Assembly (NCBI GenBank): GCA_032718475.1
Contig: JAUCBJ010008996.1
Coordinates: 33,496 to 97,495 of the forward strand
From: Nemertoderma westbladi
Lineage: Eukaryota; Animalia; Xenacoelomorpha
Length of the DNA: 64,000 nucleotides
Direction: 5' to 3'
The notes under the pieces were generated by a model. That model saw only the letters and a program-made list of their open reading frames with translations, did no database searches and was not told where the DNA came from. This document shows positions 4,092 to 63,034 of this stretch, in pieces (positions within the stretch are counted from its first letter, which is position 1; the number at the start of each line of letters is the position of its first letter). The position numbers were made by a program, and so were the translations under genes.

Positions 4092-4214
4092 ATAAACAGT
4101 AATATACTGTGTAACAAAAATTTTACAGGATTGAAATTTTTAGTTCAAAAATACAAAATTGCAATATGAAGTAAAATTTTTTTTAAAAATCAAACAGTCT
4201 ATTAAGACTAAAGA

Positions 4215-26547: not shown

Positions 26548-27500
26548 AATACTACGGTATTTTGATTAGAGAGATTAATACTAGGGTATTTTGATACGGT
26601 ATTTTGATTAGAGGTGAACACTAGACAATACTACGGTATTTTGATTTTGATTAGAGAGATTAATACTAGGCTATTTTGATACGGTATTTTGATTAGATGT
26701 GAACACTAGACAATACCACGGTATTTTGATTAGTGGTGAATATAATTAATGCTACAGTATTTTGAATAGAGGTGAACACTAGACAATACTACGGTATTTT
26801 GATTAGTGGTGAATATAATTAATGCTACAGTATTTTGAATAGAGGTGAACACTAGACAATACTACGGTATTTTGATTAGTGGTGAATATAATTAATGCTA
26901 CAGTATTTTGAATAGAGGTGAACACTAGACAATACTACGGTATTTTGATTAGTGGTGAATATAATTAATGCTACAGTATTTTGAATAGAGGTGAACACTA
27001 GACAATACTACGGTATTTTGATTAGTGGTGAATATAATTAATGCTACAGTATTTTGAATAGAGGTGAACACTAAACAATACTACGGTATTTTGATTAGTG
27101 GTGAATATAATTAATGCTACAGTATTTTGAATAGAGGTGAACACTAGACAATACTACGGTATTTTGATTAGTGGTGAATATAATTAATGCTACAGTATTC
27201 TGAATAGAGGTGAACACTAGACAATACTACGGTATTTTGATTAGTGGTGAATATAATTAATGCTACAGTATTTTGAATAGAGGTGAACATTAAATAATAC
27301 TACGTACCGTATGGGTATATATATGTAATACTACGTGTTTATATCGTGGTTGTCTAACATCATATAATTATGTATTTTGATTAGACAGAGGTGAATATGA
27401 TTACCACAGTATTTTGCTTAGAGATGAATATAAGTAATACTACAGTATTTTGCTTAGAGGTGAACATGATTAATACTGTACTACAGTATATTGAATAGAT
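26548..27500. repeat. 73-bp (36+37 dimeric) minisatellite
   Basis: ctacggtattttgattagtggtgaatataattaatgctacagtattttgaatagaggtgaacactagacaata repeated, with degenerate edges. Confidence 0.92.
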
Positions 27501-42979: not shown

Positions 42980-44663
42980 ATTGTGGAAGGTGGATTGTCT
43001 GAAGGACCCGCTGATGATGAGATTAGCCCCGAGGAGGCGACCGAGGACCACGACACCGCAACCGAGACCCACAAGTCAGACGCGGAACCGGCGTCCAGCC
43101 AACCCGACACCTCTCAGTCCTTCGAGTCGGAACTGACGCGAGGAGATTTTCTTCGACAACGTCGACCCAGTCAGCACGGCTACCGACAAAGGCGATTCGG
43201 ACCGCGGATCCCCCCGAATCCGCAACCGAACACGACGCCGCGACGACCAGTAAACCGGTTTTGTTTACCTGCGGATTGTGTAACATTTACTACGTCTCCA
43301 AGGGCGAGTTGTTGGAGCACATTGAGTCGGTACACGGGGCGGACGCACTCGCGGACACGGCTACATCCGTGTTCCACACATGTTGCGAGTGCGGATTGAC
43401 GTTCAAGTTGTACTCGGACTTCGAGGTTCATTTCTCTCTTGAGCACGAGGACAGCGGTAAGCAACCGGTTTGCTAATCAGCAGGTGGACGAGGGGGAGCA
43501 CGCTCACAGGTGTGGCGAGTGCGACTCGTCGTTCACGAGCGAGCGACAACTCGCGAGTCATTCCCGCAGCGCCCACGGCAAGGAGACCGCGGTGGCGGCC
43601 ACGGTGCACCGCTGCACTGACTGTCTGCGACCGTTCGACAGCCAATCCAAGCTGCTGCAACACGTCGCCGCGATGCACCCGAAACGAGCGGAGATCCTCG
43701 ATCGGTACAATACCGCGAAACCGAAACCCAAGAAAGTTCAGCACAACGCGGATAAAAAGCGAAAGGAAGATAAGTTGTCGAGTTTGCGGAAGCGAGTTAA
43801 TGCTCTGGCCGATTCTACAATTCGTGGCTACCGTTGCAATCCCTGCGGGAAGCCGTTCCTCAGTTCGAGATGCGCCAACGAACACATTGTCGCGTCCCAC
43901 GGGGTCAGCGTTCAGATGATTTCCACCTACAAACAGACAGTCAACATGCCTGCCAAGGAGTTCCCCTCCTGCTTCTTTTGTTCCGTTTGCGAGCGCTTCT
44001 TCGGGTTGGAGTTGTCCGCCACGCGGCACGTCTCCCAGAAACACGGCGACGAAGGCGGATCAGTTATAAACATACACGGGGAGTTGATAGAAGACGCCGC
44101 CAGGGCGTGGTCCGGGAATGTGTCCGGAATCGCGAAGCACAGGGAGTCCGGCGAGGTGTCCGGTAAAGCGAGACCGGTTGGTGGGATGTCGCGAGCCAGA
44201 CAGCCGGCAGCGAGCGCAACAGTAGCGGCTGCACACAAATGCGATCATTGCGGGGAATTGTTCAACGATCCGGTTCTGTACGAGGATCATCTGGAGGACG
44301 AACACGGTCCGATAGAGTCGTCCCCCTTTTCTATACAGAAGTGCAACGTCTGTTTGGAGTTGTTCACCGACGTTCACGCGCTCCGACAGCACTCGTTCAC
44401 GCACACGGCGTCCGCGCGCAGTAAGTCCACGAGCGATTCCGGGGGCGGCGGCGATAAACCGCGCGTTGAGTGTCCCAAATGCCCGGAGACATTCCGCAGC
44501 GAACGCCGTCTCAGCGTGCACACCGCTTCGGTTCACAACGCCTCTAACATTCTCGATATCAGCTCCGGGGAGGTTGGCTTGCTAGAATGCACTGACTGCG
44601 CCCGCGCTTTCTACACTAAAAAGGGTCTCAAACATCATCTGAAGATCATGCACAATAAGAAAC
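42980..44663 (+). CDS. Multi-zinc-finger protein, coding exon 3 (10 C2H2 fingers; apparent frameshifts near 43139, 43212, 43470)
   Basis: Acceptor tactatcag|att (phase 0) and donor aac|gtaagt (phase 1). C2H2 motifs fall in two different frames (ORFs 43261 and 43439). Confidence 0.8.
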
Positions 44664-44959
44664 GTAAGTTAAACATTTTGTTTTCCATTAAGTTCACCAA
44701 ATTTTTGTAAGAACAGAACAAGGAAGTAACACGTTTTTGATAAAGTAGTTTTACTCTCAACTTTGCTTTTTCGTATTTAATTAAAATATAAATTATTATT
44801 ATTCAAAGTATTACTCAATAGCAAAAGCTTGGAAGGATCACTTCAATCCAATTGACCCAAATTCGCATTTTTGTCCGATTTAGTTTTGCTGGAGTTTTTT
44901 TCAACTATAGTTACAAGGTGTCGAGTGTATTTCGAGTCCATTATGTTATTAAATACATT

Positions 44960-45530
44960 TATTATAGTAACTATTCTAGTTGTTCTTAACTTCGAATTAA
45001 TAGTTTATTTTAGATAATAACTTTATTTAATTTTTTTTTATATTTTTTATTGGCGCAATTGTAGGACTAAACCCATCACTGGAACAGTTCCTATAATAAA
45101 TCTTGATAAACCTAAAATATATCTCTAGTTTAACATAAAATTATACCTCGAATATACATCTTGCCAACATCTTGTTACTTTAATTAAAATAAAATCTGGG
45201 GCTAGTAAAACAGCAGCTGGGTTTGAAATTCATCGCATATTATATTCAAGAACCTGTGGCCTAGAGGTTGTTGTCTCGGCTTTCACTGCGAGGTCCCAGG
45301 TTCGAATCCGACTCCACGCCAACCGACTCCACGCCGACGCCGACTCCACGCGTACGGTTCGTGGTTTGGTGAGGAGATATAATTTTCATTTTAAAATTAC
45401 GTGATTTCTAAATATGCTGTTAAAAAGTAAAGACCTACAAACAATTGCGGCAATAAAAAATTGGTGTATATAGTGTTGGTTCGGCTGCTATAATTTCCAA
45501 AGTGTGGACGGAAAGGTGTCCGTTATTTAC
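44960..45530 (+). repeat. Left arm of a diverged long inverted repeat containing a tRNA-like module (45256-45310)
   Basis: Aligns to the reverse complement of 55500-55980 (tcaagaac.tgtggcctagag, gttcgaatcc, cgtggtttggtgag, gtgttggttcggctgcta, gtgtgg.cggaaagg). Confidence 0.7.
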
Positions 45531-46006
45531 GCTTCTCTAACAGGGAGCAATTTTATTTCAGTGAGGACGTCAGCAATAAGTTGTACCGGTAGTTTAGTAG
45601 CCAACTCAGTACCGGCTGTATTGTATATAGTCTTTCATTTTAAATCCACCGGTGCAACAACAGTAAACCAAAGTATTTACTTCAGTAAATCGAAAGTGAA
45701 AGTTATCTGAAGTAACTGGTTACTGTTATTACAGTGCGGTATAGTACAGCTACAGCAGCACTTAGGTTTAGGCTGCGTGAATTATTGTTTGTACGATTAT
45801 CTTCAAACAAGTGTAATGGCTTATGTTACATTATGTCAACTTGTCAGCCTCCTAGCGATATACTCGTAACGCAGCAAACGTAACAATAAACTTATCCCCC
45901 ATTGATGTATGTGTTGTGTATTGTGTGTATGGTGTATGTTTATATATCATGAGTATTCCCCATTGATGACAGCCATTGTAGGCGAAGAGTAAGATGGTAC
46001 CGTACA

Positions 46007-46349
46007 GTTTTTGTAATGACTGCAATTAATTGCGTAAAAATAATATGATAATTAAGAATTCAGAACGACGAAAGTCGACAAAGTAACAAAATTACGTACA
46101 CCATTGTGTGAAAGAGTACATATCCAGGGTTGACTCTTGTATATTTAAGGGTAACAGTTCCGTAGAGCACTACATTTTTGTAATGACTGCAATTAATTGC
46201 GTAAAAATAATATGATAATTAAGAATTCAGAACGACGAAAGTCGAAAGTCGACAAAGTAACAAAATTACGTACACCATTGTGTGAAAGAGTACATATCCA
46301 GGGTTGACTCTTGTATATTTAAAGGTAACAGTTCCGTAGAGCATTACAT
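46007..46349. repeat. Recent tandem duplication of ~168 bp
   Basis: ttgtaatgactgcaattaattgcg...cgtagagca.taca occurs twice, nearly identical. Confidence 0.9.
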
Positions 46350-47104
46350 TTTTGTAACATAAATCATTGTTACCATGGTAACATTATAGAGTTCTAGAAC
46401 AAAATATAATTGTTATACACTACTCTAGAACATAATAAAATAAAAAATATAATGTTCTAGAACATTTAACTAATTATTTTTCAAATTTAAAATTTCAAAA
46501 CTGTTCGATTTTGCCTTTAATTTGGTAATTCTGAAGCTATACTGGTTTTCAAGGTCACTGTTCACGATACAACTCGTTGCAAATCATTCGTGGTAACGCA
46601 ACTATCGCTTCTATCGCTACTGGTGCTTGTCTGGTGGGACGAAAAAGACAAGTTGCATAAAATTTCATACGGCAGAAATCGAATTTGGTTGGATAATACG
46701 ATATTTTTAATTGTCATATTCGTGATCAGCGTCCCAGACAACCCATTATGTCTTAAAATCAGGTTGATTTGGTAATGATCTTTAATTATCAAATTTGTGC
46801 TACTTGTATTTTTCGTGCCGCGCAATGACACATATCCAAAAAAAAACCGTAATCAACAAGGTACGATATATTTCAGTGCCATATATTCTTGATCAGCATC
46901 GCAAAACCCATATGGTCATAAAATATTTTTCACTTTTCATTATTTTATTTGCACTACTTGTTTTTTTCGTGCCCCAGGGGACACATTCTAAATTACCAAA
47001 AAATGTCTCGATTATTTAATGTTATATGTTCTATAATCATTATCACCATCCAAAAAACCGCTCTATACTGCAAAGGACGAATTTTAGGGAGCCATAAAGG
47101 TTTG

Positions 47105-47571
47105 TAGGAAGGGATCTAGGGGTCTTTACCTCGAATGATAAGTTTATTTTACCGAAAATAACTTATCTTTAATTGGCGCATTTGTAGGACTAATCCCATC
47201 ACATGCGTACTTTTTAACCGGGTAGTGTACAAATTTAAGAATCGCGTTAAACTACCCGGTTAAAAAGTACGCATGTGATGGGATTAGTCCTACAAATGCG
47301 CCAATTAAAGATAAGTTATTTTCGGTAAAATAAACTTATCATTCGAGGTAAAGACCCCTAGATCCCTTCCTATAAAAATGTATAATAACAAACACAGAGA
47401 AGAGTACGCGATTCTTAAATTTGTACACTACCCGGTTAAAAAGTACGCATGTGATGGGATTAGTCCTACAAATGCGCCAATTAAAGATAAGTTATTTTCG
47501 GTAAAATAAACTTATCATTCGAGGTAAAGACCCCTAGATCCCTTCCTATAAAAATGTATAATAACAAACAC
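47105..47571. repeat. Inverted-plus-direct triplication forming a perfect ~122-bp-arm palindrome
   Basis: 47105-47247 (inverted), 47251-47395 and 47406-47571 (direct) are copies of the same segment. Confidence 0.92.
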
Positions 47572-47865
47572 CTCGAAAAATACAGCTTGCCAACACATTG
47601 TTACTATCAATAATAAAGGTTTGTCGGTTTTCCCAACAAACCTGACTCAAAGATAGAGATGAATTACAAATACTAATTATTACGTAAAACAAAAACAAAA
47701 AAATAATTAAATTTACGAAAAAAAAATAAAAATTACGTAGCTATTCATACATAATCAAAAGGTTCTAGAATATGGTGTATTAATTTTATAGAATAATAGC
47801 CTCACGCAGATGAAAAACCATGCAATATTGGAACGCTCATATAATTGTATAATCAGATTGTGTTA

Positions 47866-48671
47866 TGGGGCGTTCATACAGTATGTCACGCAAATTTTCC
47901 AGTTTTTTGACCCACCCCCCCCCCCCCCCCTCAGTCACAAAAAAAATTTCGTAAATTTATACCCCCCCCCCCCCTCCCCCCTAGACGAAAAATATTATAT
48001 ATCAAAAATTTAATCAGTTAGAAAGCACAATAGAAAGTGAAACATTTTGACTGAAGTAGTTCTTACTAAAAGCCTATACATACTTTAGCAGCTTCAAACT
48101 ACAGCACTGTACATGTACAAGGCAGACTAGACAGGGGTGTCCTGTTAATGTTAGGGATTAAATTCAATGTTATTGAGTTTATTGTTTTTTCCTGAAAGTT
48201 TCCCACTCATCTACAAATGTGTAACCGTCACAAAAGTCACTCCCCCCCCCCCCCTTGTCACAAAATGTCACGCAAGCTCGACCCCCCCCCCCCCCCTGTC
48301 ACAAAATGTCACGAAGCTCGACCTCGACCCCCCCACCCCCCCCCCCCCCCCCCCCCCCCCCTCCTAGTGCGTGACATACTTTAAGGCCTGTTTACACGTG
48401 ACAACTTTACCAGCAACTTTTTGAGCAACTTGGCTAGTTTGACTGTAAAATAGTGGGTCATTTTATCTACTAGCTAGTTTTTGATAATTTAATTTGATTA
48501 TTCGTCAACGCAAATTCCTTTAAGTTGCCGTAAAAGTTGAGCGACTTTTACGGCAACTTTTGTACGTGTTTACTCGGAGCAACTTGATCGGCAACCTGTG
48601 TTGCTCTACAAGTTGCCTAGAAAGTTGCTCTAAAAGTTGCCACGTGTAAACAGGCCTTAATGAACGCCCCC
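47866..48671. mobile_element. PIF/Harbinger-like MITE with TTA TSD
   Basis: ggggcgttcatacagtatgtcacgc ... gcgtgacatact[insertion]atgaacgcccc, with tta on both sides. Removing it restores gttacatatttggaatccttgca as seen at 631. Confidence 0.85.
48385..48656. mobile_element. MITE nested in the right TIR of the previous element, flanked by TTAA
   Basis: ttaa|ggcctgtttacacgtg ... cacgtgtaaacaggcc|ttaa. Confidence 0.88.
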
Positions 48672-49850: not shown

Positions 49851-50484
49851 CAAAAAAGCTGCCATCTAACGAACTGCTTTTAATTAAGTAAATTCGATTT
49901 ATTATCTTCGATTGACGTAGAGTTTTGGTATTTTTTATTAACGTGCAATATAAGATAATTCAGGAATGATATAAAGTATTTAACGACCGTAAACTTTGGC
50001 GTTTTCAATTTCTTCCGTTCTACGTTACTACTGTGTTTTGTGCACACTCCCCTCAATTTTTTAAACTAGCTAGTTTTTGTTACTTTTTTTTAATGTTCTA
50101 GAGCATATTATCCTTTAATTTAATATAAACATTTTGTTCTAAAACAAATATTTTTTGTTCTAGAACAAAAAAAAACAAACAACTAGCTAATTTGTTAATT
50201 TTGTTAAATTTTTATTGTATGTTATCTTAGAAGGGTTTTATAATAAAAGTCTTTATTATTATTTTATCATTTGAAGACGTCAGAGGTATTCTATCATGAG
50301 TTACATTAAAGCAAAACTAAATTACAAGAAACCGGTAAACTACATAATATTGTACAAAGTTCGTATATAGAGGAGCTAAAATTCGTAAAACATCAAATTC
50401 TCTCTCAGAGTAAGAAATACTCTAATACGAACAGACGGTCAATCATCCATCTAATGTTATAAAAGTAATCTCAAGTCTCCAAGG

Positions 50485-50673
50485 TTACAGTTTTGTACTA
50501 TCGAGTGTGCTATGCCTCGTCATTTCCGAATTGTAATTGACAGTTCTTTGATTGATAAAAGCCAAGCGCTGTTGGTTACCCCGGCAACAAACGCGACGAA
50601 AGTCCCGACGAAATTGTTGTGACATAATATTATATAATATTGGGTTCACTGCTGAGTTGAGATAAATTAACAC
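50485..50673 (-). pseudogene. Orphan terminal exon of a class A peptide GPCR (TM7, helix 8 and C-tail; TRH/ETH-receptor-like wording)
   Basis: [30 protein letters not shown] contains NPxxY, helix-8 FR..F and CC. It is preceded by ttctcatag. No TM1-6 exons were recognised in the window. Confidence 0.8.
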
Positions 50674-50691
50674 CTATGAGAATTCCTGGAT

Positions 50692-53600
50692 TCAGAGTAG
50701 GAATACCTCATCAAGGCCCGCCTGGTGGGGGGTGGTACCTAGGACAGATGTCGCATTCCCTCTGACCACTGCAATTGAGAGCCGCTGGAAAAGGAATTCT
50801 GTGGACCTAGGTTCACCTGTTTCCTTGGCGATTCTCCGCCCTATCTCCCGCAGTACTGCGGTGCCTTCTGCACCGATTGGGCCTAAGGTCTCTAAGGCAA
50901 TAGTGCGGAATAAGTGGTGGTGCTGGAGCGCAGCATACTTATTTCCTTTACTGGTCTCTGCCATTAAAGCGGCTGCACCTGCAGATTTACTTGTCTCGGG
51001 TAGATAGGAAGGAGCGAGGGTGTCCCTGCAAGTAAAGTCCCAAACGAGTGGGCGGCCTGAGGACCAAGGGGCAAAGGTCAAACCGTCTGGTTTCTTGCCG
51101 TCTTGTGAAAGTCCTCGAGGCTCCAAGGTGGAGGCAATGCCGGCTGATGAGAGTGCACGGTGAATGATGTCATTGGCCTCTGCATGACGGGTGTATTTCC
51201 CATAATTGTGTAAGCAGCTGAGGCCATGACTTCCACTCGTGTCGACTTCCAACCCGCAACCCCTGCAGGAATGCTCCTCGCAAATAGGTGTACCCAAGCG
51301 GAGAGCTGCTCCCACCCGCAGCTGCTCATCACTGAGGCGAAGGCCTAGGGATGATACCGGCAGTGCCCTTAGCCAGTCCCCGGCGTGGTCTGCGGCGGCA
51401 GCTAGGAGACGAGCCTTCTCTTTTGCTGATGAGGCTTTGGTGATCAGTTCATCCTGTCGTGATGAGCACAGCGGGGCATCCCATCCTTTCTGAATGGCTT
51501 GATTGATTGGTTCAGGAAAATCGGTAGGTAGTAGTTGCTTCGCAGCTATTAGGAGTGGGTTGGGGATGCTGGAAATGGAACTGGGTAGTAGGGTGTTAAG
51601 CAGTGGGATGCACCCATGGCTGGAAGCCAGGAAAGCTGGTAAAGCTACGTCGGATGTGCTTCTAACCCCCAGTCCGCCCAAAGATATTGGAAGGGAAGCC
51701 TGGGCCCAAGCATCGCCCCCAATCCTAGTGTTGAGCACAATTTGGCAGCACTGCCGAATCTTATCATCTAGAGACTTCAATCGAGGCGATCCAAAGGCGG
51801 GTGAACACCGCAGCACATACATCAACTTCGGAATGGCAAAGCAATGTCTGAGTAGGTATAGGGCGTCATGCGCCGATAGAAGGTGGAGGCGGTCGGCGAA
51901 CCTAGAGAGGTCTGATTCCTTCTCTTCAAGGATCTTCTCCATGGCTGAATCTCCTAGGGGTGATCCAAGCAACAGCGCATCAGAAAAATCGATTGGTTTA
52001 ATGCTTGGTGTGATGGCATCAAACAGAGCTGTTGTCTCTTCTTTCAGTTCTAAGGGAAAGTGCTTGCCAAAGATTAACTCACACTTGGATGCCTTGACCA
52101 TAAGCCCTAGCTTTGCTGCCTCGGCTATGACCCTCTTCAGGTCAGAAGCAACAACAGATGGTGTTCCACCCAAGGAACCGTCATCCAGGAACCACACGTT
52201 GAGAGGAGATTCCATGCTATCGACAAGTTCAATTGTGTCGTTGCTGAAGAATAGAGAGGCTAGTGGGTCTCCCTGTTGCATACCATCGTCAGAGGCAATT
52301 GTTGTCCCATTGTAGAATAGGAGAGAGGGTTGCGAATATGACTGATATGCCAGGTTGTATAGTGGTGGGAGGTTCTTTAGCACTGCCCTCAAGGCTGGTC
52401 CACGGTGAATACTGTTGAAGGCATTTGAGAAATCAATTTTGATCATGACTGTCTCTCTCTCTATTGACTCACTGAGGAAACGCCTGGCTGCATGTACTGC
52501 TGCTTCTGCACCCCGGGGGGTCCCGAACCCTAGCTGATGGGGTCCTAGCTTTAAACCGGAATGCTTTGCCGCTGAATGGCAGCCTGTTTTGGCGGTAAGT
52601 CGACGCAGAGTGCACCCCACGGCTATGGGGCGAACTCCACCTGCTGGTTTAGTGAAAGCACAAAGCCTGGCGCCATAGAGGTAAGGGAGAACTTCCTGGG
52701 GCACTCCTCCCTTTAGCATGATATTAGCTACCGATGTCATAGCCTTGAGGGAAGCCAGGGCAGCATCCCCCGCTGATGATGAGATCATGTCCTTGAGGAA
52801 CTGAGGACGGCAGTTGTCGGGACCTGGTGCCGAGCCATTGGGGAATAGCTTGATTGATTTTAGAACCTCTGGGTAAGATAGCTCGAGGGTCGGGACATCT
52901 GCTTCCTCTAATGACGGTACTCCGTGGAAGTCATCTGATGGGCGTGTAGGATGAAGGAGTCGGAGGGCTTCAAGGGTCTCTGAGGTGGCTGGGGCTATAG
53001 TGGCTGATGAGGATGCTAGTCGTGCAGCTGCTTTCACATTTCCTTCTTCTATCTTAGAGGCTATCAATTTCCCTAGCATGTCATCCGAGGATTGTTGAGT
53101 CTTGGGCTTCAGATGGGATGGAAGGCTAGTCGTAGGCAGTACTAGTAATTCTTTGGTGTTCTTGACCATCTCTTCAAATTCCAACAGTTGGTCCTTTACC
53201 TTGGCTGTGAGTGATTTGCAGGCTGGACCGATAGCCCTCCGGCCACGTCTGGACCTTGATCCCTGGGAGGGTACTCTGAGAGAGAATGGAAAGGCCAGCA
53301 GGTTTAACCAGTTTGACTGACTGTTGTTGAGGACGATGGCATCACAGAGACTACTGTAAAGTGTGGCTGCTTTTAGTCTTGCACCCCTGGGGATACGAGT
53401 CAGGGTTCTGATCCTAGTGAGGGTTTCGAATGCACTGCTAAGTGAATCTGATATGGCGCTCTGGCTGGCTACCACAGGAGCAGGGGATGGAGTGTCATTG
53501 GTAAACGGTTGGGACAGTAGTCCGGGTGACCCTTGAGACATGGCTGGCTGATTACAGTGTAAGTCGGGTGGAATTGCAGCTTCAGCAGGAGCGGAGGAAC

Positions 53601-54681
53601 CGGTGGCTGGAAATGTAATGATGGAACCTGACCCAGGACAAGAGGTGCCTTCAGTGGATCTGTGTTTGCGCAGCCCTCCCTTGGGGTTGACACAGCATAA
53701 TTTAGAGCAGGTGGTGCATGGGAACTTGAGGGACAGTCCTCCACTGGTAACGGTGGGAGGTTGTCCCGGCTCTAGCGGTGCAATTGATGGAGTATGGGTA
53801 AATAAGGGTGGATGAGAGTTCGGGACCAGAGTGGGGTCTCCAATTTGATTGTTATCCTGGGAGGATTCGGCTGATTGGATTGGAGGTTGTTTCGGCTCTA
53901 GCGGTGAGATTGATTGTGTATGGTTAAGCACGGGTGGGTGAGAATTCGGAAACGGGGTGGGATCTCCAATTGGAGGTGGTGTAGGTGTCGATGCCTTCTG
54001 TTGATTGGCTGACCAAACTAGAGGGGCATTTCTGGAAATATCAGAATACAGATCACTACGATGCTTGGAAATGGTAATATCATTGATATCCTCAAAATCC
54101 GATCGTGAGTAACCTTCAATACACCACTTTGCATACCTACAGATATATACCCCACATTGATAGGTGTTGTATTGAACCTTTTGAATGGAGGGATAAACGG
54201 TAATTGGGGGGAGGTCCACATTGTAATGAATGGCAACAAGATGCACCCATTCTTTGATAGAATCAACAACTGTTTGGTTAGAGCCCCCCAGTGAGTCGAA
54301 AACCCAAATTGCTGACTTTAAAGGGGAGTAAACAGCAAGGGTCCAGTGGCAATTGTTTACATTTATAGGGAAAAATATGAAATCGTTATCAAAAACTGGC
54401 ACTGAAGGGCCCTTGCTCAGACTCTGTATGTTCTTAAAGCCGCCTTCTTGAAAGATGTCAACGAAATGAGAGTTAAAAACTCTTGCATGGCCGTTGTAGC
54501 CTAAACACAAGCTGGATATAACTGCTTCAACAATGTTATCTGTCAACCAGTTTTGCCCATTTAACGATTCTATATCGTGCCTCGAGAGAGGCAGACCTCC
54601 AAATTCGTACATGTCTTCAGATTCGGGAGGTGGGTCTGCTAGAAGCTCACTATCAGTGAGACTAATGCAGGGTATTTCCAT
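50692..54681 (-). CDS. Non-LTR retrotransposon ORF: Ulp1/C48 protease, Zn motif, RT, CCHC and restriction-like endonuclease (CRE-like)
   Basis: Protease WLTDNIV, HWTLAV, FDSLG, QYNTYQCGVY. RT PGPD, RPIAVG, QLGFG, IDFSNAFNS, GMQQGDPL, WFLDDG, GGLG. CRGC-x8-H-x3-C, RH, KPDG...WD...K..KY. Uninterrupted 1329 aa. Confidence 0.93.
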   Translation of the reverse strand: MEIPCISLTDSELLADPPPESEDMYEFGGLPLSRHDIESLNGQNWLTDNIVEAVISSLCLGYNGHARVFNSHFVDIFQEGGFKNIQSLSKGPSVPVFDNDFIFFPINVNNCHWTLAVYSPLKSAIWVFDSLGGSNQTVVDSIKEWVHLVAIHYNVDLPPITVYPSIQKVQYNTYQCGVYICRYAKWCIEGYSRSDFEDINDITISKHRSDLYSDISRNAPLVWSANQQKASTPTPPPIGDPTPFPNSHPPVLNHTQSISPLEPKQPPIQSAESSQDNNQIGDPTLVPNSHPPLFTHTPSIAPLEPGQPPTVTSGGLSLKFPCTTCSKLCCVNPKGGLRKHRSTEGTSCPGSGSIITFPATGSSAPAEAAIPPDLHCNQPAMSQGSPGLLSQPFTNDTPSPAPVVASQSAISDSLSSAFETLTRIRTLTRIPRGARLKAATLYSSLCDAIVLNNSQSNWLNLLAFPFSLRVPSQGSRSRRGRRAIGPACKSLTAKVKDQLLEFEEMVKNTKELLVLPTTSLPSHLKPKTQQSSDDMLGKLIASKIEEGNVKAAARLASSSATIAPATSETLEALRLLHPTRPSDDFHGVPSLEEADVPTLELSYPEVLKSIKLFPNGSAPGPDNCRPQFLKDMISSSAGDAALASLKAMTSVANIMLKGGVPQEVLPYLYGARLCAFTKPAGGVRPIAVGCTLRRLTAKTGCHSAAKHSGLKLGPHQLGFGTPRGAEAAVHAARRFLSESIERETVMIKIDFSNAFNSIHRGPALRAVLKNLPPLYNLAYQSYSQPSLLFYNGTTIASDDGMQQGDPLASLFFSNDTIELVDSMESPLNVWFLDDGSLGGTPSVVASDLKRVIAEAAKLGLMVKASKCELIFGKHFPLELKEETTALFDAITPSIKPIDFSDALLLGSPLGDSAMEKILEEKESDLSRFADRLHLLSAHDALYLLRHCFAIPKLMYVLRCSPAFGSPRLKSLDDKIRQCCQIVLNTRIGGDAWAQASLPISLGGLGVRSTSDVALPAFLASSHGCIPLLNTLLPSSISSIPNPLLIAAKQLLPTDFPEPINQAIQKGWDAPLCSSRQDELITKASSAKEKARLLAAAADHAGDWLRALPVSSLGLRLSDEQLRVGAALRLGTPICEEHSCRGCGLEVDTSGSHGLSCLHNYGKYTRHAEANDIIHRALSSAGIASTLEPRGLSQDGKKPDGLTFAPWSSGRPLVWDFTCRDTLAPSYLPETSKSAGAAALMAETSKGNKYAALQHHHLFRTIALETLGPIGAEGTAVLREIGRRIAKETGEPRSTEFLFQRLSIAVVRGNATSVLGTTPHQAGLDEVFLL

Positions 54682-55499
54682 GATTGATCGTTTGAAGGAA
54701 GGATGCCTTTAGTTTGTTTAGCTAGTCGCATTCATTTGGACGTGCAGACGCACCATCACCGCCTACCATCGACAATAAATGGACATGGTTCTGTTTTTAT
54801 ATACAATCTAACTCAAACTACAGTTTAGCTAGTTTTTTTTTATTCCAGCTATCAACGTTTAAAACTGCGTTTAAAACTCTCCATTTTGTTTTTCATTACC
54901 CATAATTAATCAACAAATAAACAAATCAACAAATCGAATCAAATTCTATCATTGTACTATTACTAGCTAGTAAATAATTCAATAATTAATATGATTTAAT
55001 ATTGATATCTCCATATTGTACTCTATTGTACTCATATCATAAAAAAAATGTTCAAATGTTCTATGTTATCTTTGTATCACATATTTAATAAAAATCACTA
55101 GCTACAATGAAAATTTGTACAGTAGTTGTTAGTAATTGTTTTTAACACTAATCAAATAAAATACGCCTCAATAAAAAGTTTTTTTTTATTGTTCTAGAAA
55201 AAAATATTTGTTCTAGAATAGGTATTACTTTTTACAAAAATGAATAGATGACATTTTTAAAAAAAGTAAAAAAGACTAGCTTTGATAACAACAAAAACAG
55301 AATTAATTAATTTTGTTCGAGAACAACAATTATTTGTTCTAGAACAAAATTAGTAAAAAAATGAATAGACAATATGTTCTAGAATATTTTTTATAAAGTA
55401 ACAAAAAGTATCTATTTTAAAAATTTTTGGGCGGGTCTGCCCAAAACACAGTATCCTTCTTCCAATACCACTTATTGTACTACACATAAACACAAATTC

Positions 55500-55980
55500 T
55501 GAAAAATAAATGACTCCTTTCCGCCCACACTTATGAAACTAGCAGCCGAACCAACACATGCGTACTATTTAACCGCAAATTTTGGTATCGCTGTCGCGCT
55601 TCTAGAACATATATATTATATGATAAAGAATAGATTCTTAGAATATGTTCTAGAAGTCCTTGAATAATATTATAAAATTAAAATCTCACCAAACCACGTA
55701 TAGTTTTCGACCCTATTGGCCATTGGGTCTCATTAGCGTGGTGTTGGATTCGAACGTGGGACCTCGAGGTGGAAGCCGAGACATGAAACTCTAGGCCACA
55801 TGTTCTTGAGATATGAGATGTGAATTTCGCTCTGAAAAATGACGCTACTCGTAATTAATTAATTAACGTAACTAATTTGTACACTACCCGGTGAATAATT
55901 ATGCATGTGATAGCATTAGTACAATTGCGCCAATATAAATTATCATTAAAAATTAGGACCCCTAGAATAGTTCCTATAAG
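55500..55980 (-). repeat. Right arm of the diverged long inverted repeat (tRNA-like module 55746-55799)
   Basis: Reverse-complement homolog of 44960-45530. Confidence 0.7.
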
Positions 55981-56786
55981 AAATTTAATTTTCTCAGAAT
56001 GAATATCCGGTAAAAATATATCGTAAGTTGGTACTTTTTTCAATATTGTCAATTGACCGAAATTCAACTATTCTATCTTCAGTTTTTACTAACCACTTTG
56101 CGATTGTATGATTAGCCGATCTACTCAAATTATATACAATATATTGTTTTGATTTCTGGAGTGTCAAATACAATGGAAATATTCACAAAATAATCGAGTG
56201 AGTCACTACGCATTTTTTAGTTTCAATCGCGGTTTTGATAGATTTTCAAATTGCACATACCGCTAAAAATCCACACAAACCTACTAACAGCAAACTACAC
56301 CTTTGTCATCGAATGGTAAATGCTACTGACACATTTTGTCATCCCAAGAATTCAAGAAACCTAAATAGAAAATAAAGGCTTAACACACCTTAATTCCGAT
56401 TCCTAAGATTTTGAATTAGTATACGTTTAAGTTTGCAGTTTGCACCCATATTTAGCACCAATCTAGAAATGTGTACCATCTATGGTAGTATTGAAAATAT
56501 TAATGCTGCATTCTCCATCTCAAAAAAACCTAACGCAAAGTACAGTTGAAGGCCATCATATCTCTCCCATGGTAACAGGTAAAGTTTTCTGAAAATTTAG
56601 GGATTTTTATATTTTGTAATAATTTACCTGTTCCCTTAGATACGAGGGCGACTGTTCATGACAATCAAATGTTGTAATACCAAGCTATGGATCTGTCACT
56701 ATCTCTATATGAGCGAGCAGGGAGTGACACATCTAAATCCAAGTCTTAAAGCAGATAGGCTAATTATTTATTTACATTTACTTTAG

Positions 56787-59700
56787 GGAATTCGTTACAT
56801 GAGATCCAAGATGAAGATGATTCTGTCCCGGATAACAATAAGAGTAACATGGTGCCGGACGCGTTGGTGCAAGTGACAACCACAACCCTAGATGACGACG
56901 AGCCGGACTTGGATACACCATCGTTACCAAAAATCCCAACACCAAAAAGCAAAGGTCCCAAGGAACAATCCCGTCTGATTCATACAAGTCCGGTGAAACT
57001 CTCCAGTCGTAAACCGAGTGTCGCTAAACCGGGGTTCGCCTGCAGCCAATGCAGCAGCACCTACACCGACAAGAACAGTCTGATGCGACATCTGATGGAC
57101 GCCCACGCACCCCAATACGGGGTGGAGGACCAGGCATCCGATGATAGTCTACCCGGGAGTCCCACAGAGGAAGGACTGCTGGCCTGTTCCGAGTGCGAGG
57201 CATCCTTCACCAAAGAGTCCCAGTTGACTCGGCATTTCAACCAATCCCATAGATGGTTTTGTTCCCAATGCGAAATGCAATTTTGTTCCAAGAAGCAGCT
57301 CAAAAAACACAATAAAAGCGCCCACTTTGCGGGCGTTGCGTCAACTAGATACTCATGTTCGCATTGTTCACTCTCCTTCGCTAGTGAGTCAAAGCTATCC
57401 TTTCATAAAATGAAATCGCACAAAAGGGGGGAAATTAAACATGTAAAAGAGAAGAAAAACATTGCCAAAGATTCTCCTGCTGGTGAAAAGAAATCGCCGT
57501 TCCAGGTTAAGAAAGATACTCTGAGAGAATTGCGACTCAAAGACGCCTTAAAGAAGAAAAAAGAATCTCTTCAAGAGAATAATGATGTATTTAATGACAT
57601 CAAAGCAGCTTTTAAAGAAACTAAAAATATCGAAAAGGAACAAATTGAACCCACTGAGGACTCATTAGATAATGTGAAAGATATTGATGGAAGTGTTAGG
57701 AATGATGTACAGACTGAAGATATGGAAGCATCTAACAAGTCTCCTGTCAGGAAAGAGCCGGATGTGGGGACTGATGTGCAGGACGATAGTTTGATTGATA
57801 ATGAAACCTCTATTGTAGACACGAGTAATGACATCAACATGGATTTAAATTCCGATTACGTTAATGCTAATATCGTTGGCGACACTGAAATGGGGGATGT
57901 TGTTGTTGCTGATGCTATGCTAGACGAAGATCCTTGTATTCCGGTCGGTATTTCCGACACAAGTTATGATGAATCTAAACCAAATAATGAGAGAAAAATT
58001 CAACCAAATGCAGATTTTATGAATGACTCAATGGAAGGTCGTGTTCCTATTAATGATGTGACAGACAGCGAGATTGTCAACGAGTATTCATCTGACATTT
58101 CAGACAATTTAGTTATTGACGAACAACAACCAATTGGCGCTAAAAAATCTAAAATTAATTTATCCAGTCAAACAACTCATCACGGTGTCGGTGATGATTC
58201 GAGTCCCTCTGATGTCGCTAATTCTGTTGGTGGTCAGTTGAATAAGACATCTGATTTCAGTGGCTCCACTGAACACGATTCACACTCCGCGCAAGCAGAA
58301 GTAATTTTTCCACCTATTCCGTTGCACAACTGCAGAAAATGCGATGACAAGTTCGGTTCAATGGAGGAGCTTATAGACCACATTGAAGAGGCTCACGAGA
58401 CACCATCCAAGTATTGTCCAGTGTGTAACCTCCCCGGATATGACTACGCCACAATGGTATCTCACTTCGTACAGCATCACTGCTTCAAGAAGAGTGGGAC
58501 GTGTGTTCCGTGTCAGCGACGTTTCGATGACCTGCCCCGGTTGAAGAAACACGCACAGGGTTCCCACATTAATAAAGTATTCAATAAGTGTAAGATCTGT
58601 GAGATGGGATTCGACTGCCCCAGTCGACTCTATATGCATATGGATAAGGTTCACAGCCACAATGTGCTGCTCGCTCAGTATAAAGCTGGTCACGATAGGA
58701 GTCGACAGCTCGATATTATTTCAACGAAACGGCGGGAGATTGAACGCCAGCAGCAGATTCTCGAGAAGCAAAAGCAACTCTTATTGAAGCTTGAATCGCA
58801 ACAAATGAAAAGTGAAAAAAAGGTTGTGGATTTAAATGTTTTGAAGGAATTTGATTCTCCTCAATTTGAAAAGGAGGCTGTCAAAGCGATTTCTAAATCA
58901 TCTCCACGCGTTTCACATCCAAGTCCTAGTATGTTTTCTAGTCCGGTAAAGTTATCCAGTCAGGGAATGTCCACACTCGGTAAAAAGAAGTCTCGTACTT
59001 CTATACCCTCAATGGAGCCCATAATGTGCATGGAATGTGGTGAGTCGAAAAATGGAATGGAAAGTTTGGTTCAGCATTTTACTCAAGAACACACTCGCAA
59101 TGATAACTTTTGTTATCCCTGTAATCGAATATTTGAGGAACTGTCACGCTTCAGACGTCATACTAGATACCATTGTGAGAAAGCCAGGTATCGCTGCACC
59201 ATATGTGGACAGACTTACGATCGTTCAAACAATCTCTACAAGCATATGGCATCTGCACACAAATCATATAAAACCGAGGAAAACATTGATTATCAAAACT
59301 CAACTCCCAAAATGTCAAATAATATTAGCAACATACCAACATCACAATCAGTTTCTCCATCAGCATCTGGAGGAAAGAAAGGTTTTGGTAAGATCAAGCT
59401 GAGCATCCCAGACCCCAGTGAAAAAGGTGGTGAGCTCTCTTCTGTTAAGGATATTTTGGCAGGAGTCGAGGTCCAGCCATTGGTCCCCCCGGACTATCTA
59501 TGTCGCACCTGCGGCGATAAATTTAAGTCGCTGCCAGCGCTTGACAAGCACCAGTTGTCTGACCATAGTGTGCGAATGGGAACCAGCAAAAGGAAATCCC
59601 GGGTGCCCACAAAACTAATTCTGGACAGTGATAGAACACCTCGAAATGAGGCACAACTGGGTACAAATATGGCTGCTCTGAACGATTCTACAGGTCTGGT

Positions 59701-62700
59701 CTCTGATCCCGATCCTCTTATGGACAACATTGAGAATGTTAGTATTATGATCGGAGATCCATCGGAGATGGGCGGATCCACAGGTCCCGGTTCCTTCGGA
59801 CCCGTATTCGTACCACCTCCTTCCCCAGAACGCCGGCATGGTGTTCACGTCATCAGTTCATATGTTAATATGATCTGTGATTCCAATAACTGCCAGAAGC
59901 AATTCAATTCTTATTTTGACTATGTGGATCACTACTTCAGCGCCCATGGTGAGAATTTAATGTGTTTGACATGCGGGAAACCCTTTCCGGATCAGGATAA
60001 ATACGATCACCATATTAGGGGTCACGTGCGAAAACAGCGGTTCCTGTGCCACTTGTGTCACGTCGGTTTTGATCGCGCCGATAAGGTGTTTCCTCACATG
60101 AGACGGATGCACAACACCACAGTGGAGTTGGACGAAGGAAAACATCTCGCCGAAGCAGCCAGACGAAGACCCAAAGTCCGAACAGAAAGCTCTCTGGTCA
60201 GTTACAATCCGGGAACATCAAACGCATTGGGTAGGTCATTCCAAAGCAAAAGTACTTTCAAATCACTTCTTCATAAAAACACATATTCTATTAATAAGAT
60301 GCATAAGAAAGCCCCGTTTAAAAAGCATCCGAAACTCATGGTAAACAAAACATATACCTGCAAATATTGCCATTTCAAATGCCCAAATAAATCTGTTTTA
60401 TTTGCCCATGTATGTGAAGTCAAGAACGCGGTTGAGTCTACTCCGGTTGGCCAGGACGGCGGTTTAGATTACCCACCCGGAGAGATTACGTGCCACAAGT
60501 GCGACATCTGTTTCATCAACTATGATACATTGGATGAAGCAGAGGCTCACCAGAAAGAAGCTCATGACATTACTGATCCTCCTTTCTACATCAAACGTTT
60601 GAAGACTTGTCCAATATGCATGGTCGCAGTGTTGGCCTCGAATTACACACGGCATCAGGAGCGCGCTCACCCCGAATACTACGCGAGCTACCGGGCTCAA
60701 ACTCGCCAAGAGAGGGTTCATCGGATGAAAGTGAAAAAGATAAAATCTCGACAAATCATAAATAAACAAATTAGTAAAATATCTAACCAACACAAAAAAT
60801 TTCAAATGCACTTTAAATCGAGGGGAACTCTGAGCTCAGAGGGATTGGTTCGACCTACGAAATACGCTCCTTCCGGGCTCCTTAAGATGCGTTTAGCTGA
60901 TTTTCCTGATACTGACGAACTTCTTAATTGCGAGTATTGCGACGAGTCAATAGCTGGGCGACTGATGCATCGTCATCTTAGACAACAACACCCGACTAAA
61001 CTGTACTCCTACCAGTGTCCGGTGTGTAAGATCTGGTGCTGCACGGGTAGCAGTATAAACAGACACATTGTTGTTAAACACGGGAATATATGTGAGGATA
61101 TGGTCACAGGAGACCAAGGCGTTGGACAATATCATATGAGTAATTTCGCTGGGGTCAGAAGTAAGGGGAAGAAGTCAAAAGGACATCATAAGAAATTGAG
61201 ATTGAAGAGGCAGAGGTCAAATCTTCCTTCATCGAGTCACTGGCGTTGCAGTCATTGCGGTCGGACTTTCTTCTCGAAGTGCAATCTCGAGCGCCATCAC
61301 CGGGAGACCGCCTGTCTCCTTATCAACCCTTATCCAATGAAGGAACTCGTTTCCGAGACACCCCCTGCGCCTCCAATAGAAGTAGAGACGGAATCCATCA
61401 AAGAGGACCCGGTAACGAGCAACGGGAATCTATCCGTGTCCGCTGGTGGAGGTGCGAGCGATAAGGTATGTAGTTATTGCAGTCGTGTGTTCGCCAACAG
61501 TAGCAATGTGTGTCGACATCAACGAGAAACACAATGTCTCGTAATTAATGCAAAAAACCGGCAGCATCTAGATCCCCCTCCTCAACCTGTTGTTAAACCA
61601 AAGGAAGAAGTTGTTCCCATGGAATCATTTTATGTGGAACCCCCATCCACCGCTCAGCTGACGCCTCAACATTTTTGCAGCGTTTGTAACCGCGGATTTG
61701 TTAACAGAGGTAATCTGCAACGCCATATAGTTCAGGTGGATTGCGTTCCACCAAACCAATCCACGGCAACCGTACAACAAAGTACGAGTTTACTTTCTGA
61801 AGTTGCAGCCGCTTCGCAACAACGCCAACACCAGGAATTAGATACGATCGATTCACCAACGATTGTCGACTCTGATCAAGTACTGGAGTCTAACACTCCC
61901 GGCCCCATTAAAGTCTTCAATGTCGATGATAAAAGCAATGTTGTGGCTAAAACTGAGACATTCGAAGAATCCACAGGGAAATCTAGCAAAGATAAACCGG
62001 CTGACGACCATCTGTATTGCGACATTTGCGGAATCTCGTTCGAGCGATCGATCGGAATGGTTCTACACGATCGGTTTATCCACGGGATCGTCACGTTGCC
62101 GGTGAAGCAAAGGAAGGGAAAACGTGGGAGCGAATCGGCGGAAGGCGAATCAGCGATGGATGATCAGCCTCCCACCAAACAACAGAAACTCGACGAGGTT
62201 TCCGACTCCGCCGTCGAAAAACTCCAATGTCCGCAGTGTCCGAAAATGTTCTCCAATGCCTCGACTATGGCGATACACGCCAAGTATTCCCACGGCCAAC
62301 ACGGCGTTATACTCTGTGAGGTCTGCAATCAGGGGGTCTATCACGTGCAGTACGCGAGCCACATGGCGAGACACGAGCTCGCCAAGAGGTTACCCACAGC
62401 GGACAGACCGGAAGGCATGGAGAGAACTGATCTTCCTGAGTCAGTGGACCCGGCTTTGTTCCCCTACTCGTGCGACCTCTGCGGGGAGTTGTTCGCCGAA
62501 CGCGACGAGCTGCGCGACCACCAGACAGCCGACCACGACGCCTCGGAGCGCTCCAACCATCGCTGCTCCATCTGCTCCGTCGCGTTCGCCTCCGACACCA
62601 ATCTCTCCGCTCATATGGCGCACGCCCACGCAGACTGCGGCGCCGGGATCCAACGGAAGTCGTCGGTGTTCCGCGGATTCGGATCGCCCAGCGCCAATAA

Positions 62701-63034
62701 CGGACATGACGTCATAGACTTGTCGGCTCTATTGGACTCAGACGAAGGCGAAATGGAGGGCGTCTCCAAGACAACGAATGACGTCAACAGGCGGTTTAGT
62801 AACACGGATTCCAGGAGCGGAACAGAAGGTCGCTCCAAACTCGTCAGTTTCCCGTCGCCAAACACTCGGTTGATGAAACCGAAAACTGAAAGGCATCTGC
62901 CCTTGTCTCCGGTGATCGTGGATAACTGCCCCACCTTCAAATTGACTCCGTTAACTTCCGGGGAAAAATGCGAACAACCTCCAGTGTTCACCTCTAGAGG
63001 GCGCCGCGTCATACCGAAGACTTGGTTAGAGTAG
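56787..63034 (+). CDS. Multi-zinc-finger protein, final 6.2-kb coding exon (about 28 C2H2/C2HC fingers)
   Basis: Acceptor tttactttag|gg is phase 1 and in frame with ORF 56849..63034. Dispersed CxxC-x12-HxxxxH motifs. Confidence 0.92.

What the first reader, a model, noticed from the sequence alone, without database searches (positions are those of the whole stretch)
50031..55451. Intact non-LTR retrotransposon ORF fused to a GPCR last exon and enclosed by DNA-transposon TIRs
Seen: the RT ORF stop (50692) is followed after only 18 nt, with no poly(A) or normal 3' UTR, by an AG and a same-strand GPCR TM7/C-tail exon. An aataataataaa signal follows near 50250-50263. The rest of the GPCR is absent, and I found no convincing TSD for the retroelement. 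The whole cassette lies between TA-flanked TIRs. Inference: this is either 3' transduction (the element borrows a host last exon for polyadenylation) or Pack-type capture of a genomic fragment by a TIR element. The second case would be a retrotransposon travelling as cut-and-paste cargo.
Basis: partly seen in the sequence, partly recalled or inferred. Interest (0 to 1): 0.8.

Follow-up and report, generated by a model that had tools for sequence, protein, structure and literature searches.

The report
Retrotransposon family carrying a receptor exon
An intact animal retrotransposon with a SUMO-protease-like front end carries the tail of a host hormone-receptor gene right behind its stop codon, likely in 10-20 near-identical copies, and the copy seen here likely jumped into a small DNA transposon instead of being carried by it.

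Summary
The parts are real: a 1,338-codon open frame (Ulp1 protease, zinc knuckle, RT, restriction-like endonuclease), 18 nt, a 62-codon class A GPCR TM7/tail piece (TRH/ETH-receptor-like), and TA-flanked inverted repeats that are only 78% alike. Public contigs hold the empty 577-bp TIR element joined at that site. The RT-GPCR junction lies on a 978-bp contig with no differences at 15 times flank depth, and the body is 7-21 times flank depth, whereas contigs matching this copy's left TIR arm exactly are at flank depth. So the GPCR piece is likely a fixed 3' tail of a young multi-copy family, and the TIRs likely a one-off nested insertion. Relatives end about 70 nt after the stop in A/TAA runs (38 of 61 loci); none of 308 stored proteins (nearly all RT relatives) has Ulp1. 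Open: the parent GPCR gene was not found, the splice AG and poly(A) use are untested, and no contig bridges the 3' duplication, so MITE targeting or cargo for some copies is not excluded. The scan had not noted this elsewhere. New variant of a known kind; interest 0.42.

The parts
50029..50030 (+). TA next to the left TIR (likely TA target duplication of the MITE)
   Evidence: sequence; a contig of another family member in run X4 also shows TA before a related TIR start (table 7)
50031..50217 (.). Left arm of a 577-bp non-coding TIR element (MITE); TIR 50031-50170
   Evidence: exact-match contigs at flank depth in X2 (35.7) and X3 (20.3, 16.2)
50218..50228 (.). 11-bp direct repeat, 3' copy (likely target-site duplication of the insert)
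   Evidence: single copy at the junction of empty elements
50229..50287 (-). 59-bp 3' extension with (TAA)3 and AATAAA (50257-50252); likely donor-flank sequence, or the true tail end
   Evidence: one X1 contig shares 50262-50324 and then runs on unlike (record 5)
50288..50297 (.). 10-bp direct repeat, 3' copy (candidate duplication of a donor copy)
   Evidence: high-depth contigs start at 50296, 50297 and 50302; chance about 0.01 given that position
50298..50484 (-). AT-rich tail, likely GPCR 3' UTR, shared by high-depth contigs
   Evidence: contigs 50296-50385 at depth 310-424 and 50356-50711 at 415
50485..50673 (-). GPCR TM7 (NPxxY), helix 8 and C-tail, 62 codons plus stop, TRH/ETH-receptor-like, in frame with the RT ORF but behind two stops
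50674..50691 (-). 18-nt spacer ending in AG (in frame: five codons and TAG); use as splice acceptor not shown
50692..54708 (-). Single open frame, 1,338 codons (1,329 from Met at 54681)
51037..51267 (-). CCHC knuckle and restriction-like endonuclease core (RH..E..KPD..D)
   Evidence: (residues 1148-1224); family profile matches R2 proteins, E 2e-20
52072..52650 (-). Reverse transcriptase domain (QQGDPL, FLDD)
   Evidence: Pfam RVT_1 residues 687-879; motifs
53638..53718 (-). N-terminal Cys/His knuckle, also seen in several relatives
   Evidence: sequence; alignment
53756..53974 (.). Two 93-nt copies, 126 nt apart, 81% alike, in a proline-rich linker
   Evidence: D6
54040..54549 (-). Ulp1/SENP-like cysteine protease domain with His, Asp, Gln and Cys in place
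   Evidence: Pfam C48 E 5e-14; SENP1 E 5e-12; Atlas score 0.96; joined to the RT on one X2 contig 52367-54594, depth 539
54682..54942 (-). Likely 5' UTR; 5' end not resolved
   Evidence: sequence; depth of bin 54748-55031
54943..54952 (.). 10-bp direct repeat, 5' copy
54953..55061 (-). 109 bp between the inner and outer repeats; likely donor 5' flank or part of the 5' UTR
   Evidence: inference
55062..55072 (.). 11-bp direct repeat, 5' copy
   Evidence: joint
55073..55451 (.). Right arm of the MITE; TIR 55311-55451, followed by TA at 55452-55453

Best explanation
This is an intact non-LTR retrotransposon (Ulp1 protease, RT, restriction-like endonuclease) that carries a host GPCR end behind its stop codon, likely as the fixed 3' tail of a young multi-copy family, and this copy likely entered a 577-bp MITE by ordinary target-primed reverse transcription, leaving an 11-bp duplication. 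Shown: domain order, the GPCR match, the two direct repeats, the high-depth RT-GPCR and Ulp1-RT junction contigs, the empty MITE junction, flank-level depth of this arm. Inferred: a founder copy lay directly upstream of (or in) the last coding part of a TRH/ETH-like receptor gene, read through, and its offspring kept about 400 nt of receptor sequence in place of the clade's usual 70-nt UTR and A/TAA tail; the GPCR piece is not translated (two stops, no start); this copy also took 109 and 59 bp of a donor's flanks with the donor's 10-bp duplication; the protease would cut the polyprotein or remove SUMO.
For: X3 contig 50386-51363, 978 nt, 0 differences, depth 377.7, bridges the RT stop and the whole GPCR piece; X1 and X2 cover the same stretch with overlapping 0-difference contigs at 415-446 and 561-568. 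Body depth is 16-21x (X1), 7-12x (X2), 10-15x (X3) that of the long right-flank contig. Contigs that match the left arm exactly are at 35.7 (X2, 49990-50088) and 20.3 and 16.2 (X3). Joint 50220 to 55065 skipping 4844 in X2 (79.5) and X3 (65.2) equals insert plus one 11-bp repeat; contigs leave 50228 into sequence like 55073 onward (12 of 14), one of them after 51 exact letters at depth 28.7. Tail contigs leave at 50356, 50305, 50302, 50296 and 50262; the three loose ends whose letters were shown do not match the MITE arm. X4 holds a contig that starts inside the GPCR piece at 50665 behind unrelated sequence, as a 5'-truncated copy would. Control: 38 of 61 related loci have an A or TAA run, median 71 nt after the stop, and 0 of 80 loci match the GPCR. 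Target duplications are reported for CRE and R4 elements (PMC3636483, passages); donor duplications kept inside transductions are reported for SVA (PMC12593883, passages).
Against: No separate parent GPCR exon was accounted for in X1-X3 at 85% likeness or more (depth remainder 0 in X3; one 30-letter overlap only in X1 and X2), so the source locus and the capture route are not shown. No poly(A) at the 3' duplication. Both-sided flank transduction is unusual, and either direct repeat alone could be chance (P 0.05 for 11 bp, 0.16 for 10 bp in zones of this size); the joined empty contigs share only 6 of the 11 letters with both sides. Depth at 50180-50203 of the MITE arm (other alleles included) is 379-461 in X1 and up to 571 in X2, close to the body depth, so many MITE copies could be filled. 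Summed contig depth is not a copy number; X2 and X3 are one sample and X1 may be the source of the window. An unlisted contig at 50682-50711 (depth about 57 in X1, 90 in X2) may be RT copies with another 3' end.
Confidence: 0.65

Rival explanations
1. The family is as described, but this copy got into the MITE at the DNA level: a donor locus (retroelement with 109 and 59 bp of flank) was copied into a break in the MITE by gap filling, giving a single-copy Pack-TIR.
For: Both flanks and an inner 10-bp repeat lie inside the insert and there is no poly(A). Single-copy Pack-TIRs are reported to arise mostly by gap filling with microhomology (PMC8277862, passages).
Against: The empty MITE has one 11-mer and the filled one has two, with no MITE sequence lost (577 + 4844 = 5421; joint), which is what staggered cutting gives; a 4.8-kb copy with the same 11-mer at both breakpoints is less expected from gap repair (inference).
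Confidence: 0.13
2. The retroelement targets this MITE family at a set site, like Tx1 in Tx1d of Xenopus, so many copies are composites made one by one.
For: Most restriction-like-endonuclease elements are target-specific and transposons are among known targets (PMC4640811; Tx1/Tx1d in PMC6719617). MITE inner-arm depth is near body depth in X1 and X2.
Against: No joint from the tail to the MITE arm was listed (2 joints in all); three shown loose ends do not match the arm; about a third of X1 depth leaves at 50356, and at least 215 of 424 (X2) and 72 of 310 (X3) leave at 50291-50296 by my book-keeping.
Confidence: 0.1
3. The whole 5.4-kb TIR-bounded unit was amplified by cut-and-paste, so the retrotransposon travels as cargo.
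For: TA-flanked TIRs enclose everything; copies are nearly identical, and long unbranched contigs (2351 nt in X1, 2228 nt in X2) show few 5'-truncated copies in those stretches.
Against: Exact matches to this arm, from the outer end to the insert, are at flank depth while the body is 7-21 times higher; the two TIRs differ by 21% while the cargo differs from its sisters by at most 5 letters in 1280; empty elements exist; tail contigs leave into non-MITE sequence.
Confidence: 0.07
4. The GPCR exon here, or in one sister copy, is still the working last exon of the host gene, with the retroelement's end forming the end of the intron.
For: No separate parent exon was accounted for in X1-X3; X4 holds RT 3' end plus GPCR piece on contigs of depth 59.5-59.7 that run on for about 950 unlike letters after 50305; the 62 codons are open.
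Against: In this window no other GPCR part was seen in the element and the 5' neighbour beyond it is a C2H2 zinc-finger ORF on the other strand; the parent may simply be more than 15% diverged or filtered out.
Confidence: 0.05

Closest known systems
R2-group (restriction-like endonuclease) non-LTR retrotransposons, CRE-like clade (CRE1, SLACS, MoTeR, FoTeR and unnamed animal relatives)
   Same: One ORF, N-terminal knuckle, RT, CCHC plus PD-(D/E)xK endonuclease; target duplication (PMC3636483; PMC12857005). Relatives at 36-48% identity include records from Mythimna, Plutella, Ephydatia and Folsomia.
   Different: N-terminal Ulp1; about 400-nt GPCR-derived tail instead of about 70 nt plus A/TAA run; motif spacing differs by one or two residues from the published SLACS/CRE pattern and has RHA for RHD/N. 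The label CRE is recalled, not tested against named references.
NeSL and Utopia-1_TSP (Ulp1-bearing RLE elements of nematodes)
   Same: [quoted passage not shown]
   Different: NeSL elements are reported to delete target sequence and to insert in spliced leaders; this copy has a duplication and sits in a MITE. RT relationship to NeSL was not tested.
L1 and SVA 3' transduction; SVA_F1 with its fixed MAST2 piece
   Same: Host sequence enclosed by the new target duplication, donor duplication retained, a host exon that became the standard structure of a subfamily (PMC12593883; PMC6431247).
   Different: Here the carrier is an autonomous RLE element in an invertebrate-type genome, the fixed piece is 3' coding sequence, and no poly(A) was seen.
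Pack-TIRs and Pack-MULEs
   Same: Host gene fragment between TIRs with a TA on each side (PMC8277862).
   Different: The gene fragment belongs to the retroelement, which is multi-copy without this arm; no second TIR-bounded copy was shown.
Tx1/Tx1d composite of Xenopus
   Same: Non-LTR element inside a DNA transposon (PMC6719617, one passage).
   Different: Specific targeting is not shown here and is disfavoured; Tx1 uses an AP-type endonuclease (recalled).

Membership tests
R2-group (RLE) non-LTR retrotransposon | Single ORF with RT followed by a PD-(D/E)xK restriction-like endonuclease | tested here: met
   family profile hits R2 proteins over RT to endonuclease, E 2e-20; definition PMC3636483
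R2-group (RLE) non-LTR retrotransposon | Target-site change consistent with TPRT (duplication or deletion) | tested here: met
   11-bp duplication with an empty form
CRE clade | RT groups with CRE1/SLACS/MoTeR in a tree | not testable with these tools
   no named reference sequences were returned by any search; tree holds only unnamed or uncharacterised relatives
CRE clade | REL motif C-X1-3-C-X7-8-H-X3-4-C-X9-10-RHD/N-X19-33-E-X9-21-R/KPD-X12-14-D/E (PMC12857005) | tested here: inconclusive
   spacings 2, 9, 3, 8, 19, 9, 15 and RHA: all residues in order, three spacings off by one
CRE clade | Sequence-specific target | tested here: inconclusive
   only one full site is known; loose ends are unlike each other
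NeSL/Utopia | N-terminal Ulp1-like protease | tested here: met
NeSL/Utopia | Insertion in spliced-leader or U2 genes, target deletion | tested here: not met
   site is a MITE with a duplication; no Rfam match above chance in 49900-55600
3' transduction | Extra host sequence enclosed by the element's target duplication | tested here: met
3' transduction | Source locus with the element upstream of the same host sequence | not testable with these tools
   no genome held; no separate parent exon accounted for in contigs
3' transduction | Poly(A) tail after a downstream signal | tested here: not met
   no A run before the 3' duplication; shown loose ends have none
Multicopy Pack-TIR | TIRs on both sides of a captured fragment | tested here: met
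Multicopy Pack-TIR | Same TIR-bounded unit at several sites with distinct target duplications | tested here: not met
   exact arm at flank depth, body at 7-21x; composites with other arm alleles are not excluded
MITE of IS630-Tc1-mariner type | Short, non-coding, TIRs, TA duplication, multi-copy, empty form | tested here: met
   577 bp, 22% GC; related members and empty junctions
MITE of IS630-Tc1-mariner type | Autonomous partner transposase | not tested
   superfamily rests on TA alone (recalled rule)
Class A GPCR, TRH/ETH receptor group | TM7 NPxxY and helix 8 closest to this group | tested here: inconclusive
   best hits TRH receptor and unnamed 7tm_1 proteins; 30 aligned residues cannot fix the subfamily; the ETH label is recalled; Pfam gave no hit on the 62 aa

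The most novel reading that the evidence does not exclude
An active restriction-like-endonuclease retrotransposon family has swapped its whole 3' end for the last coding stretch and UTR of a neuropeptide-receptor gene and still spreads without a poly(A) or TAA tail. It would be a snapshot of how this clade keeps gaining host modules at its 3' end (nine relatives carry in-frame USP domains there), and, with its own Ulp1 domain, a third class of ubiquitin-like protease recruited by the clade, pointing to selection for undoing SUMO or ubiquitin silencing.
Probability: 0.3. Interest if true: 0.62.

Novelty: new variant of a known kind. Interest (0 to 1): 0.42.

Why it matters
R2-type elements are thought to recognise their own 3' UTR to prime reverse transcription (recalled). 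A family that spreads with host receptor sequence starting at most 18 nt after its stop gives a natural test of how much native 3' RNA such an element needs. It is also a rare case of a host coding piece fixed in an autonomous invertebrate LINE, which could feed small RNAs against the receptor gene (untested). The cargo idea, which would have been more surprising, is not supported, and nesting in a MITE is ordinary.

Tried and rejected
No genome is held, so no copy-by-copy survey. No RNA holder was listed: expression, splicing and read-through are untested. Parts without cover: 50230-50259 has no contig in any of 4 runs and 50260-50289 little, so no contig bridges the 3' duplication; X4 has no cover from 51624 to 54747. 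The tool filters records, so neither hole is evidence. Tables were cut: 22 of 73 loose ends and 32 of 551 pieces shown; 15 of 167 joints. The query's own peptides found no relative in JGI metagenome contigs (192 pattern matches, 0 confirmed); the family alignment found none in viral contigs (42 matches, 0 confirmed). Search for other Ulp1-RT fusions: 0 of 119 hits carry PF02902, 0 of 315 candidates scored for the Ulp1 region, 0 of 30 proteins picked for long extensions, 0 of 308 other stored proteins and 0 of 80 loci (three weak matches, E 0.24-0.87); many relatives are incomplete at the N-terminus, so this is weak. Rfam: one chance match (E 0.98) in 49900-55600. Read-through RT-GPCR protein rejected: two in-frame stops. 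An X4 contig entering the GPCR piece at 50665 was considered as the parent intron and rejected: no AG at the join and stops in frame (read by eye). Paper searches that found no report of a GPCR piece in such an element or of Ulp1, OTU or USP in CRE-like elements; the library lacks most subscription papers and Repbase, and supplements (for example PMC4640811 S5, PMC12857005 S1) were not read. Earlier scan notes: nothing on this element. No structure or complex prediction was run.
Full report
Observation. On the minus strand one frame is open from 54708 to 50692 (1,338 codons; first Met at 54681). It holds a Ulp1/C48 protease (residues 54-223, E 5e-14), an RT (687-879), a Cys/His knuckle between them, and a CCHC plus RH..E..KPD..D endonuclease core at 1148-1224. 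The protease has His, Asp, Gln and Cys in place and is closest to SENP1 and Ulp1 among solved structures (E 5e-12; Atlas score 0.96). After the stop come 18 nt ending in AG and then 62 open codons in the same frame. These match TM7 and helix 8 of class A GPCRs: TRH receptor E 2.6e-8, and 3 of 13 candidate proteins, all 7tm_1, the best two at 77% over 30 residues. Pfam gave no hit on this short piece. AATAAA lies at 50257-50252. The inverted repeats are real (50029-50170 against 55311-55453, 78.5% over 144 nt, E 5e-25), start with TA, and have no third copy in the window.

Two exact direct repeats bracket the insert: 11 bp at 50218-50228 and 55062-55072, and 10 bp at 50288-50297 and 54943-54952. 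Removing the insert and one 11-mer (4,844 bp) leaves a 577-bp, 22% GC TIR element. Either repeat alone could be chance (P 0.05 and 0.16 in zones of that size; about 0.01 for the 10-mer once the 3' position is fixed), so the read data decide.

Other copies. No genome is held. Six runs were listed, four hold the stretch or part of it, and I laid X1-X4 twice. X2 and X3 are one sample, X1 may be the window's source, all are contigs, and summed depth is only a rough guide to copy number. The long right-flank contigs have depth 21.4, 46.1 and 25.4; the listed body contigs have 342-446, 322-568 and 242-378, or 16-21, 7-12 and 10-15 times more, with 0-5 differing letters over 1-2 kb. One X3 contig (50386-51363, no differences, depth 377.7) bridges the RT stop and the whole GPCR piece; in X1 and X2 overlapping contigs do the same at 415-446 and 561-568. 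One X2 contig (52367-54594, depth 539) joins the protease to the RT. So protease and GPCR tail are both traits of the high-depth family, not of this copy alone.

The TIRs. Contigs that match this copy's left arm exactly are at flank depth: X2 49990-50088 at 35.7; X3 50020-50080 at 20.3 and 50147-50206 at 16.2. Empty elements exist: a joint from 50220 to 55065 skips exactly 4,844 in X2 (79.5) and X3 (65.2), though only 6 letters fit both sides there; several contigs leave 50228 into sequence like 55073 onward (12 of 14 letters for the X3 loose end), and one X2 contig does so after 51 exact letters at depth 28.7 (its 14 further letters were not shown). Against my reading: with other alleles counted, the inner arm reaches 379-461 in X1 and 571 in X2, near body depth, and no contig bridges the 3' duplication, so filled MITEs with other arm alleles are not excluded.

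The 3' end varies. High-depth contigs begin at 50296, 50297 and 50302, at the inner 10-bp repeat. Contigs leave the tail at 50356 (X1 and X2; about a third of X1 depth), 50305 (X4), 50302 (X1), 50296 (X3) and 50262 (X1). The three loose ends whose letters were shown are neither poly(A) nor MITE arm, and neither of the 2 joints listed links tail to arm. By depth book-keeping at least 215 of 424 (X2) and 72 of 310 (X3) leave at 50291-50296 (this assumes 30-letter overlaps). The AATAAA is therefore likely outside many copies. X4 holds RT 3' end plus tail at depth 59.5-59.7 and a second contig (23.1) that enters the GPCR piece at 50665 from unrelated sequence, as a 5'-truncated copy would.

Parent gene. 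In the bin over the GPCR piece the depth is fully explained by the element's contigs in X3, and in X1 and X2 leaves room only for a 30-letter overlap at 50682-50711 (depth about 57 and 90). So no separate parent exon at 85% or more was accounted for. That extra contig was not listed; it is either RT copies with another 3' end 10 nt after the stop or short 5'-truncated copies. The AG is unproven as an acceptor: the in-frame codons before it end in a stop, which fits an intron end or a decayed coding stretch.

Controls from relatives. Homologues are 36-48% identical over RT and endonuclease; the profile matches R2 proteins. Of 80 related loci, 61 reached the ORF end; 38 of these 61 have an A or TAA run within 700 nt, median 71 nt after the stop; 0 of 80 match the GPCR. 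This element has no such run within 600 nt, only (TAA)3 at 50261. No Ulp1 was found in 308 other stored proteins or the 80 loci, a weak negative because many are incomplete. Among 30 proteins picked for long extensions, 8 carry an in-frame C-terminal USP domain and 1 an N-terminal OTU; with P0087 that makes 9 USP fusions among 165 proteins that reach the endonuclease end. Their USP parts are 22-67% alike and fall in two RT groups in a FastTree of 49 of 223 eligible rows, P0267 left out as too short. These are predicted proteins, not checked at DNA level.

Mechanism. Most likely (0.65) a founder element next to the end of a TRH/ETH-like receptor gene read through it, and its offspring, now likely 10-20 near-identical copies, keep that piece as untranslated tail. 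This copy then inserted into a MITE with an 11-bp duplication, likely with 109 and 59 bp of donor flank and the donor's 10-bp duplication. Rivals: DNA-level gap filling into the MITE (0.13), specific targeting of the MITE (0.10), cut-and-paste amplification of the composite (0.07), and a still-working host exon at the donor site (0.05).

Known systems (passages read, no whole texts, no supplements). Ulp1 ahead of RT and RLE is known from NeSL and Utopia-1_TSP (PMC4640811); CRE and R4 make duplications, NeSL deletions (PMC3636483); the REL pattern of SLACS/CRE is close but not exact (PMC12857005); transductions, retained donor duplications and the fixed MAST2 piece of SVA_F1 (PMC12593883; PMC6431247); Pack-TIRs (PMC8277862); Tx1 in Tx1d (PMC6719617). 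The CRE and ETH labels are recalled and not tested against named references. Searches found no report of this combination; Repbase was not searchable. The scan's notes hold nothing on it.

Verdict. A new variant of a known kind: an autonomous RLE retrotransposon family with its own Ulp1 domain and a fixed GPCR-derived tail, nested once in a MITE. The cargo reading is not supported. Interest 0.42.

Noticed in passing
proteins P0087, P0134, P0135, P0148, P0151, P0153, P0159, P0205, P0267; P0152: Nine relatives carry an in-frame C-terminal USP (UCH) domain after the endonuclease and one an N-terminal OTU; the USP parts are divergent and lie in two RT groups. The clade seems to gain ubiquitin-like proteases repeatedly.
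   Followed up: partly
proteins P0126, P0149, P0089, P0046, P0263: Other relatives carry N-terminal PHD and RFX DNA-binding domains or ankyrin repeats.
   Followed up: no
window 51048-51155: A joint skipping 106 nt at depth about 200 in X1 and X3 (side 32): possibly a multi-copy internally deleted derivative.
   Followed up: no
window 50356: About a third of X1 depth, and a contig in X2, leave the tail here into the same other sequence: a second tail subfamily or the parent UTR.
   Followed up: partly
window 50682-50711: An unlisted contig of depth about 57 (X1) and 90 (X2) overlaps only these 30 letters: another 3' end after the RT stop or short truncated copies.
   Followed up: partly
window 54888: Depth at this 5' UTR position is about twice the body in X1 and is present in X4, so this patch is shared with another repeat or a derivative.
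   Followed up: no
window 15595-20943: Intact BEL/Pao polyprotein ORF of 1,782 codons between two pieces of a satellite, with 47-nt and 90-nt direct repeats.
   Followed up: no
window 4206-8178, 9672-15084, 21043-21553, 26535-27499, 32735-34950: Long tandem arrays (72-nt unit at 4206-8178; about 40-nt units at 9672-15084) that give stop-free frames.
   Followed up: no
window 43400-44710 and 56759-63034: Two C2H2 zinc-finger ORFs on the plus strand (436 and 2,091 codons) flank the repeat-rich block that holds the element.
   Followed up: no
window 44944-47583 and 55504-55990; 48381-48660: Further inverted-repeat elements: a family with 154-nt arms at 47094-47559 and related pieces at 45011-45528 and 55504-55990, and a 52-nt-arm element at 48381-48660 with very high contig depth.
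   Followed up: no
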